Positions 62,131-63,198 of a stretch of DNA of 64,000 bases are shown in pieces. The stretch comes from Bdellovibrionales bacterium (GTDB taxonomy: Bacteria; Bdellovibrionota; Bdellovibrionia; Bdellovibrionales; JAUICD01). The position numbers were made by a program, and so were the translations under genes. The notes beneath the pieces are model-generated. The model was given only the letters and a program-made list of their open reading frames with translations, made no database searches and was not told where the DNA came from. The DNA is taken from the NCBI GenBank assembly GCA_965203275.1, contig OZ241865.1:1920001-1984000 (forward strand), given 5' to 3'. The first letter of the stretch is position 1, and every line of letters begins with the position of its first letter.

Positions 62131-63198
62131 ATTTCCCTAACATGCAGTTTATCCGGGATCTGGCATCCGGGATCTGGGAACCCGGGACCTGGCACCCCGG
62201 CAAACTGGCATGAGAAAGAACTTTTTCCTTAACATGTAGTCAAAAAACGAAGATATCCTCTTTACTAAAAGTAAACGGACTTTTGAGGTGATGACCATTT
62301 TATCGACGACGACAGTCGTCGTGGTCATCGCCCAAAAGCAACCAGAGGTTGGTTTACTTTTAGTGAAACAAACTCCTTAACATGTGGTAAAGAGAAAAAA
62401 GGATCCTCCCTACTCAAAATAAATGGATTTTCTAGGCAGTTAGCCTTTGATCAACGGCGATAAGCCGTTGGGCTAACTGTCAGAAAACATGCCAGAGGCA
62501 TGATTTATTTTGAGTGAAACAAACCCTTAACATGTAGTAAAAAGACGAAGAGATCCTCCTCTACTCAAAATGAGTGGATTTTTTAGATGTTGCCTATTTT
62601 GTCAAAGGCGAAAGCCTTTGCAGGCAACACTCAAGGTGTAAGAAGGAACTTTTTCCTTAACATCGTGTCAAGAGGTAAAAGGATTATCCCTAACCCCACC
62701 CCCCGCCCTTCGATTCTGCTTTTCCATTTTGTTTTTACTTGAGGATGAGGGCAGTGTGAGCCTTCCGAAGTCCTCAATTGAGCTTGCTTTTAAGAAGCAA
62801 GCTCAATTTGCGGAAGATCTCCAGTATCCCACTGCCCCATCCTCCTTCTAATTACTTTTTATTTGAGAGTTACGCAGAATCTAAAAGAGAATAAAAAAAC
62901 AAAAAATGAATAGCTTGTTTCCTTAACTTAGTGTTAAAAAACGAGAGGATCCTTCCTACTAAAAGTGGTCAGGCTTTCTAGGCGATGACCATTTTATCGA
63001 TGGCGTGAGCCGTCGTGGTCATCGCCAGAAAGTGGCCAGAGGTCAGACCACTTTTAGTGAAACAGCTCAGCCTTTAATCGACGGCGATAAGCCGTTGGGC
63101 TAACTGTCAGAAAACATGCCAGAGGCATGATTTATTTTGAGTGAACCAAACGGCTAGTTCAATTTTAGGGAAACAGAGGTCAGACCACTTTTAGTGAG
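62131..63198 (+). repeat. Largest modular repeat array (C, A, A, truncated A, D, A, fragments)
   Basis: Leaders at about 62227, 62375, 62525, 62655 and 62921; A modules 62264-62364, 62412-62515 and 62958-63058. Confidence 0.92.

What the first reader, a model, noticed from the sequence alone, without database searches (positions are those of the whole stretch)
62227..63198. Cassette-like repeat system: a fixed 37-bp leader in front of interchangeable structured cargo modules
Seen: the intergenic repeat clusters are ordered arrays. Most units begin with CC(T/C)TAAC, and exactly 37 bp later the cargo starts. I counted this at 26043, 35400, 35489, 35609, 51261, 62227, 62375, 62655 and 62921, and on the minus strand ending at 22830. 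The leader holds an imperfect palindrome TTAACA-N3-TGTYAA and ends in a GGATCCTCCCT-like box; internal bases vary but spacing does not. Four unrelated cargoes follow it: A (101-nt branched fold), B (GCAAGCTTC-xxx-GAAGCTTGC), C (GC-rich heptamers) and D (~200-nt hairpin). Units often end in GAAGGAACTTTTT or TTGTTT just before the next leader. Established: REP/BIME/REPIN mosaics spread by HUH (RAYT) enzymes are the closest known concept. Inference: the leader is a protein-binding or recombination site through which units are added or shuffled. No candidate enzyme is encoded in this window.
Basis: partly seen in the sequence, partly recalled or inferred. Interest (0 to 1): 0.88.

Follow-up and report, generated by a model that had tools for sequence, protein, structure and literature searches.

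The report
One-ended hairpin repeat carrying upstream passengers
The "leader plus cargo" arrays are real but read the other way round: leader and main hairpin are one 165-base selfish DNA unit, about 1,000 copies in this bacterial genome, that pastes in from one fixed end, erases some target DNA and drags along whatever lies upstream, with no recognisable transposase or reverse transcriptase to move it.

Summary
The arrays are real: 1,038 leaders genome-wide (0 in a reversed control), 8–11% of the genome, found only in this genus among 31 genomes searched. The cassette reading mostly fails. Leader and cargo A are one element: A follows 978 of 1,295 heads, B is an insert inside A, C mostly follows an 18-nt stub, and D lies upstream of leaders. 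The fixed boundary is A's 3' end (GTGAAACA); the leader side is ragged. About 14 clean filled-versus-empty comparisons show no target duplication, 0–48 bases of target lost, 8–22 extra bases before the leader, and no target motif. Hairpins D and E, heptamer runs, a four-helix-bundle gene and Rpn-nuclease pieces sit upstream of leaders, often 5'-cut, like passengers. No RAYT, IS110 or reverse transcriptase was found. My best reading is one-ended, target-primed copying of a single-stranded unit into breaks by a host polymerase; the enzyme is not identified. A same-family genome has a different repeat with the same polarity. The scan noted cargo A before in this genome and four-helix-bundle/heptamer cassettes in other genomes; polarity, target loss and passengers are tested here.

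The parts
61961..62109 (+). 5'-cut copy of passenger E (about 480-nt non-coding hairpin family)
   Evidence: matches E positions 320-469 at 93%, head 25 nt downstream
62153..62208 (+). heptamer run C (CCGGGAT-type), upstream passenger of the first unit; right end read by eye
62212..62226 (+). pre-leader: ragged, degenerate 5' part of the element
62227..62370 (+). unit 1: leader (37 nt) + full A, ending GTGAAACA
62375..62521 (+). unit 2: leader + full A
62655..62687 (+). leader remnant (33 nt) joined to D
62688..62920 (+). passenger D (about 200-nt hairpin with a sharp 5' start CCCTAACCCCAC) plus A-rich tract and pre-leader of unit 5
62921..63064 (+). unit 5: leader + full A (three-way junction fold)
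63065..63148 (+). 5'-cut A piece with intact 3' end (GTGAACCA)
63149..63175 (+). stacked tail: last arm of A with intact end, different allele
63176..63201 (+). stacked tail: last arm of A with intact end (GTGAGCCA); array boundary
22794..22830 (-). leader of another unit
25944..26079 (.). divergent doublet: leaders at 25980(-) and 26043(+), 63 nt apart
35400..35645 (+). array: leader+C, leader+A carrying insert B, leader
51261..51297 (+). leader of another unit

Best explanation
The mobile unit is about 165 nt: a degenerate pre-leader (8-22 nt), the 36-38-nt leader, the Y-shaped hairpin A and a short single-stranded tail (GTGA-AACA). It spreads by one-ended copy-in. A single-stranded copy (DNA or RNA; leader-to-A is the folded strand) is presented at a break or nick. 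The free 3' end of the target pairs loosely with the tail and a host polymerase copies back through A and the leader, usually stopping 8-22 nt past the CCYTAAC head. The other side is joined by end repair, with loss of 0-48 target bases and no duplication. Early stops, often at the small hairpin loop, leave 5'-cut tails that stack up. Read-through carries upstream neighbours (C, D, E, the four-helix-bundle gene, Rpn pieces). Hairpins and older copies are favoured landing places, which builds polar arrays. Shown: unit anatomy, polarity, junction structure, partial nesting, passenger placement. Inferred: single-stranded intermediate, target priming, the host polymerase, and any role of the four-helix-bundle protein (binding the template) or Rpn-like nucleases (making breaks). 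Confidence in anatomy and polarity is about 0.8; in the whole mechanism without a reverse transcriptase or HUH enzyme, 0.45.
For: Unit: A follows 978 of 1,295 heads and 52 of 55 in G001. Fixed end: conservation drops 4-7 nt after GTGA but fades over about 15 nt upstream of the head. Junctions: 20 distinct two-sided filled/empty comparisons in non-element targets. I dropped one in what looks like a CRISPR array, one spurious poly-A match and four that repeat an event or lengthen it through point differences. The roughly 14 left show no duplication, 0-48 nt lost and pre-leaders of 8-22 nt. In 310 one-sided junctions, most of them into other repeat copies, the target starts anywhere from GTGA-2 to +7 with no motif. 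5'-cut pieces: 212 stacked tails begin at the small loop but only 3 of 227 3'-cut units end there; tail allele equals the preceding end in 12 of 212, against 23.4 expected. Nesting is real: 49 of 134 bracket-matched outer arms are complementary, against 25.6 +/- 4.1 in shuffles. Passengers: D 44 of 46; E 19 of 20 near-full and 11 of 12 5'-cut copies followed by a head (counted by eye); four-helix-bundle module 9 of 9 full copies followed by heptamers and a head, 18 of 19 5'-cut pieces directly after an A end; Rpn-like ORFs with a downstream same-strand head 29 of 59, against 102 of 1,496 other ORFs (the 59 include a few false members). Structure is kept: outer arms pair in 602 of 679 (shuffled 136), inner arms in 600 of 624 (shuffled 134), a bulged A in 593 of 624, and G-U/T pairs favour the leader-to-A strand (0.98 vs 0.51 per unit). 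Parallel case: G004 has 24 four-helix-bundle matches and a different repeat (95 motif hits) with a sharp 3' end and head-to-tail arrays; its congener G003 has neither. RpnA cuts without sequence specificity and leaves primable 3'-OH ends (PMC5350276, passages).
Against: No enzyme is identified and no intermediate was seen. Many junctions are amplified copies of few events, so counts overstate independence, and 'empty' sites are paralogues, not proven ancestors. The four-helix-bundle module is cut almost as often at its 3' side (14) as at its 5' side (19), so it is also simply a target. In G001 several of these genes have no element nearby. Small samples (19-49 kb) of G021, G113 and G025, which have many such genes, showed no abundant repeat. 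Ankyrin and pilin families are also enriched near arrays, so Rpn enrichment need not be causal, and G022 has 14 Rpn matches with no leader and no four-helix-bundle match. DinB and AEP primase-polymerase were not found, leaving Pol I or the replicative polymerase. RNA versus DNA is unresolved.
Confidence: 0.45

Rival explanations
1. Rolling-circle, IS91/ISCR-like or RAYT-like movement by an HUH enzyme that is lost or too divergent to detect. The A end is the origin, the leader palindrome a leaky terminator, and passengers arise by one-ended transposition.
For: Two unlike ends, no target duplication and co-mobilised neighbours match IS91 (PMC13181058, passages). The conserved bulge and strand-specific hairpin resemble REP recognition (PMC8266576, passages). 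Apical loops are C-GNNA-G with a pyrimidine in third place in 140 of the 359 four-base loops of the seven commonest types, which suits a DNA tetraloop class (recalled).
Against: No Y1_Tnp match (control rang); no Y2_Tnp or IS91 match (controls silent, so weak); a motif scan gave 5 HUH-like hits, none resembling a transposase by eye. No target tetranucleotide, a fuzzy fixed end and 0-48-nt target loss.
Confidence: 0.2
2. A true bacterial SINE: the unit is transcribed, processed to a tRNA-like RNA ending NCCA/AACA, and reverse-transcribed at target breaks by a group II intron or other reverse transcriptase in trans, since lost from G000.
For: Fixed 3' end, 5'-cut series and stacks of unlike tails. 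Tails ACCA or GCCA in 101 of 700 ends and AACA in 323. G001 has a group II-type RT. The four-helix-bundle family includes Avd, an RT partner (recalled).
Against: No RVT_1 match in G000 or G004, nor in G021 and G113; G001 RTs find nothing in G000. Identical young copies imply recent activity. No orientation bias relative to flanking genes (77/62/61/59 of 259).
Confidence: 0.15
3. One reading: the leader is a recombinase site (NIME/dRS3- or integron-like) at which downstream cassettes are added and shuffled.
For: Leader left half nearly invariant; recurrent joints at the head; dRS3 arrays are proposed recombinase targets (PMC1797815, passages); a 187-aa tyrosine recombinase is shared by G000 and G001.
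Against: One cargo dominates, others lie upstream, spacing varies by class; junctions in non-element DNA fall 8-22 nt upstream of the leader with target loss; no IS110/Piv match.
Confidence: 0.1
4. No dedicated pathway: an old repeat maintained and shuffled by ectopic recombination, slippage and gene conversion, and kept as 3' stabilising hairpins.
For: Mosaic alleles (421 distinct A sequences in 679 units), local tandem duplications, and A ends abutting stop codons (27 of 150 within 8 nt, against 8 of 189 on the leader side).
Against: Single-unit insertions of 162-168 nt into non-homologous targets with constant polarity are not explained by homologous exchange.
Confidence: 0.1

Closest known systems
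REP/BIME/REPIN with RAYT (TnpA-REP) (PMC3116915, PMC8266576, PMC6006769; passages read)
   Same: Hundreds to thousands of intergenic hairpins in mosaic arrays; strand-specific fold with a conserved bulge; ends often beside stop codons.
   Different: 165-nt three-way fold rather than 20-50-nt palindromes; no GTAG-type tetranucleotide seen at the stem foot; head-to-tail polar arrays; no Y1 HUH gene; carries genes as passengers.
IS91/ISCR one-ended transposition (PMC13181058; passages read)
   Same: Two functionally unlike ends, no target duplication, capture of DNA next to the leaky end.
   Different: No transposase found, no target tetranucleotide, fuzzy fixed end, target deletion.
Neisserial NIME arrays (dRS3 + RS) (PMC1797815; passages read)
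   Same: Arrays of a short conserved motif alternating with 50-200-nt repeat modules; dynamic; mobiliser inferred.
   Different: Leader is lopsided, directional and part of one dominant element; no Piv/IS110-type gene.
Non-LTR retroposons/SINEs (features recalled)
   Same: Fixed 3' end, ragged 5' end, 5'-cut copies, microhomology, target loss, concatenated unlike copies.
   Different: No reverse transcriptase in the genome; flank carried is upstream; no RNA evidence.
Four-helix-bundle (TIGR02436; 23S rRNA IVS/Avd-like) gene cassettes with heptamer arms (PDB 2gsc Xcc0516, E 0.001; earlier scan notes)
   Same: Same gene family, flanked by heptamer runs, expanded in several genomes of this order.
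   Different: Here both heptamer runs read in the same direction and the gene is tied into arrays of a separate structured element.

Membership tests
REP/REPIN-RAYT | Y1 HUH (RAYT) gene in the genome | tested here: not met
   0 matches to PF01797 in G000 (90.4% complete, one contig); control rang in 6 of 14
REP/REPIN-RAYT | 20-50-nt palindrome preceded by a conserved GTAG-type tetranucleotide, in inverted doublets | tested here: not met
   165-nt branched unit; most clusters single-stranded in orientation; 68 divergent doublets
REP/REPIN-RAYT | strand-specific hairpin with conserved bulge | tested here: met
IS91/ISCR | Y2 HUH transposase | tested here: inconclusive
   no match, but controls silent; motif scan gave no candidate
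IS91/ISCR | no target duplication; capture at the leaky end | tested here: met
IS91/ISCR | fixed target tetranucleotide and precise origin end | tested here: not met
MITE of a DDE transposase | terminal inverted repeats and target duplication | tested here: not met
   at most TTTC/GAAA in common; no duplication in about 14 clean events. ISfinder itself was not available.
NIME (dRS3) | symmetric inverted-repeat site separating many unrelated modules | tested here: not met
NIME (dRS3) | IS110/Piv-type recombinase | tested here: not met
   0 in G000 and G001; control rang in 6 of 14
Integron cassettes (attC) | R''/R' inverted core sites closing each cassette, and an IntI (features recalled) | tested here: not met
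   convergent leader pairs are rare; the two tyrosine recombinases are a Xer-like 307-aa and a 187-aa protein; not scanned with an IntI model
SINE/retroposon | fixed 3' end and 5'-truncated copies | tested here: met
SINE/retroposon | partner reverse transcriptase | tested here: not met
   none in G000; three in G001
SINE/retroposon | unit-length RNA | not testable with these tools
   no RNA holder listed
Rfam RNA families | match at gathering score | tested here: not met

The most novel reading that the evidence does not exclude
A class of bacterial mobile DNA that behaves like a SINE (fixed 3' end, truncation, flank capture, self-stacking) but needs neither transposase nor reverse transcriptase. 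The Avd-like four-helix-bundle protein would hold the folded template and hand it to a host polymerase at breaks. That would give a mechanism for this large family of unknown proteins, for heptamer arrays and perhaps for rRNA intervening sequences, and make the element an engine of gene duplication in these genomes.
Probability: 0.22. Interest if true: 0.9.

Novelty: new variant of a known kind. Interest (0 to 1): 0.66.

Why it matters
How transposase-less bacterial repeats spread is a long-standing open question. Here about 1,000 young copies and many paralogous empty sites expose the junction rules directly, and these rules fit none of the REP, MITE, IS91 or integron families as tested. The element occupies 8-11% of the genome, disrupts and duplicates genes, and runs up to gene and tRNA ends. 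It also offers a concrete substrate for testing the four-helix-bundle protein family.

Tried and rejected
Enzyme searches without a match in G000: Y1_Tnp, RVT_1, IS110, Y2_Tnp and IS91 (62, 94; controls silent), AEP primase, DinB (95), tblastn/phmmer with two G001 RTs, HUH motif scan. MutS is present in all 5 family genomes, so loss of mismatch repair is not the cause. Cas1 is in G000, G001 and G003 but not G004, so it does not track the repeats. Clean nesting at the small loop was rejected (3 left halves against 212 tails), as was resolution by homologous exchange with the host copy (outer arm matches only a tail in 4 of 129). No clear replichore bias (541 of 1,038), but the skew-derived origin is unreliable. 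No leader lies inside the single rRNA operon between its landmarks. Rfam: nothing at gathering score, 4 weak chance-level matches. No RNA holder listed. Laying four contig sets on a 19.9-kb, 7-array stretch was uninformative because contigs break at the repeats. The single-sequence fold of the four-helix-bundle protein was weak (pLDDT 59.8) and was not used. Literature searches found nothing; others listed papers, none on this arrangement by title or abstract start; PMC8700078 (passages) only names the gene. Supplements were not read. A hammerhead or box C/D reading was considered from single motifs and dropped as not conserved.

Full report
1. Observation. A profile finds 1,038 in the 2.57-Mb genome, 523 on + and 515 on -, in 384 clusters of up to nine, and nothing above score 5 in the reversed sequence. 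Thirteen lie in the window. Leader-linked sequence covers 8.0% of the genome by a strict mask and 10.9% by a looser one. The pattern occurs in G000 (625 strict matches) and its congener G001 (35) and in none of 29 other relatives searched. Rfam has no match.

2. The cassette reading. Of 1,295 heads, 978 are followed by A, 967 of them at offset 36-38; 147 by heptamers, mostly after an 18-nt stub; 105 by an inverted A end; 5 by D; 60 by nothing recognised. B lies inside A in 18 of 18 sites. In G001, 52 of 55 distinct leaders in the regions fetched carry A. Leader and A are therefore one element. Its stems are held by structure: outer arms pair in 602 of 679 full units against 136 after shuffling, inner arms in 600 of 624 against 134, with a bulged A in 593. 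The leader shows no such covariation and is conserved by sequence on its left half. Earlier notes of this scan described the same A family elsewhere in this genome; I confirmed it independently.

3. Polarity. Conservation ends sharply 4-7 nt after GTGA at the end of A. On the leader side it fades over about 15 nt. What follows an A end is unique DNA or an internal piece of another copy with an intact end. There are 212 stacked tails starting at the small loop but only 3 of 227 3'-cut units that end there, and tails repeat the preceding allele less often than chance (12 against 23.4). Nesting does occur: 49 of 134 bracket-matched outer arms are complementary, against 25.6 +/- 4.1. It comes with loss of host sequence, and 471 ends and 135 starts stay unmatched, some through strict patterns. 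This contradicts clean insertion at one spot, as proposed in note e1-7797242.

4. Junctions. Comparing filled sites with paralogous empty ones in non-element DNA gave 23 sites and 20 distinct comparisons. I set aside one in a likely CRISPR array, one spurious match and four repeats or inflated cases. In the roughly 14 left there is no target duplication, 0-48 target bases are missing, the insert starts 8-22 nt before the head, and single-unit inserts are 162-168 nt. In 310 one-sided junctions (mostly into other repeat copies) the target begins from GTGA-2 to +7, with 0-4 shared or several mismatched bases and no motif. Empty sites are paralogues, not proven ancestors, and amplified copies reduce independence.

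5. Passengers. The other modules lie upstream of a leader. D has a sharp start resembling the head and is followed by a head in 44 of 46 near-full copies. A fifth module, E (about 480 nt), is followed by a head in 19 of 20 near-full and 11 of 12 5'-cut copies; one 5'-cut copy opens the array in this window. A 101-aa four-helix-bundle gene (TIGR02436) lies between heptamer runs: 9 full, 19 5'-cut, 14 3'-cut and 2 doubly cut pieces. Rpn-like ORFs have a downstream head in 29 of 59 cases against 102 of 1,496. Non-element segments under 400 nt between element marks run end-to-head in 41 of 54 cases, whereas long unique segments are mostly faced by ends on both sides (25 of 36). A ends crowd against stop codons and tRNA ends.

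6. Enzyme. Not found in G000: Y1 HUH, reverse transcriptase, IS110, AEP (81), DinB (95). Y2/IS91 searches were blank with silent controls. Present: Pol I (82), two tyrosine recombinases, Cas1, 14 Rpn-like matches, and multi-copy ORFs that look like IS256- and IS1634-type transposases by eye; the 7-copy and 5-copy families have no array beside them. The four-helix-bundle gene is expanded in G000 (32 matches), G001, G004, G021 and G113, and found in 50 of 151 genomes of the order. Its relatives carry heptamer flanks, as earlier notes report. G004 has a different structured repeat with a sharp end and head-to-tail arrays, absent from congener G003, which lacks the gene. Against a simple link: small samples of G021, G113 and G025 showed no abundant repeat, and several G001 copies stand alone.

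7. Mechanism. I favour one-ended, target-primed copying of a single-stranded unit into breaks by a host polymerase (0.45). Anatomy, polarity, junctions and passenger placement are shown; the intermediate, the priming and every enzyme are inferred. RNA-like signs (NCCA/AACA tail; G-U bias) and DNA-like signs (C-GNNA-G loops; class recalled) conflict.

8. Comparison. It looks like BIME/NIME arrays (PMC3116915, PMC8266576, PMC6006769, PMC1797815; passages only) and works like IS91 one-ended transposition (PMC13181058; passages) or a SINE (recalled), but fails a defining test of each. RpnA's non-specific, primable cuts are from PMC5350276 (passages). Searches found no paper on this arrangement; the library lacks most subscription journals and ISfinder could not be consulted.

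9. Verdict. Real feature, cassette interpretation mostly wrong, polarity reversed. New variant of a known kind, with a 0.22 chance of a new class of enzyme-free-looking, SINE-like mobility. Interest 0.66.

Noticed in passing
G000 tRNA genes (216535, 342280, 781172, 1867563, 2009843, 2503379): An A end points at a tRNA end within 9 nt at 6 of 72 ends, against 0.29 expected; a seventh, tRNA-Asp at 653183, is visible. Both 5' and 3' tRNA ends are hit, so a deletion ratchet is as likely as tRNA priming.
   Followed up: partly
L061, L062, L073, L086, L091, L093, L095, L100, L103, L106-L108, L111: Four-helix-bundle genes often stand as head-to-head inverted pairs around a hairpin, some Y-shaped; several others abut tRNA or tmRNA 3' ends through heptamer runs (read by eye).
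   Followed up: partly
G004, e.g. L172, L165: Unrelated structured repeat (95 exact motif hits) with a sharp end GAAGACCTT and head-to-tail arrays; 0 hits in congener G003.
   Followed up: partly
leader positions 12-17, bottom strand: Variants read TTAACA, TTTACA and TTGACA, all -35-like hexamers facing upstream; no -10 box at the usual spacing.
   Followed up: no
G000 about 369400-369750: An array is inserted in what looks like a CRISPR repeat array beside a cas1 gene.
   Followed up: no
window 29911-31434 (+): 507-aa protein made of many helix-turn-helix repeats with no catalytic domain found.
   Followed up: no
G000 2047873-2048310; G001 892939-893397: A 185-187-aa stand-alone tyrosine recombinase catalytic domain is conserved in both genomes; function unknown.
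   Followed up: partly
window 41856-47774: Type I restriction specificity subunit, OLD-family nuclease and UvrD helicase in a row (Gabija-like pair; name recalled).
   Followed up: no
window 9786-10340, 34044-34235, 55399-58500, 18542-20634: Unrelated tandem repeats: 11-12-nt and 16-nt runs, 18-nt coding repeats, and four tandem small-gene copies.
   Followed up: no
G000 genome-wide: 68 divergent leader doublets 50-70 nt apart share a core that resembles half of hairpin D's centre, as if two units landed in D from opposite sides.
   Followed up: partly
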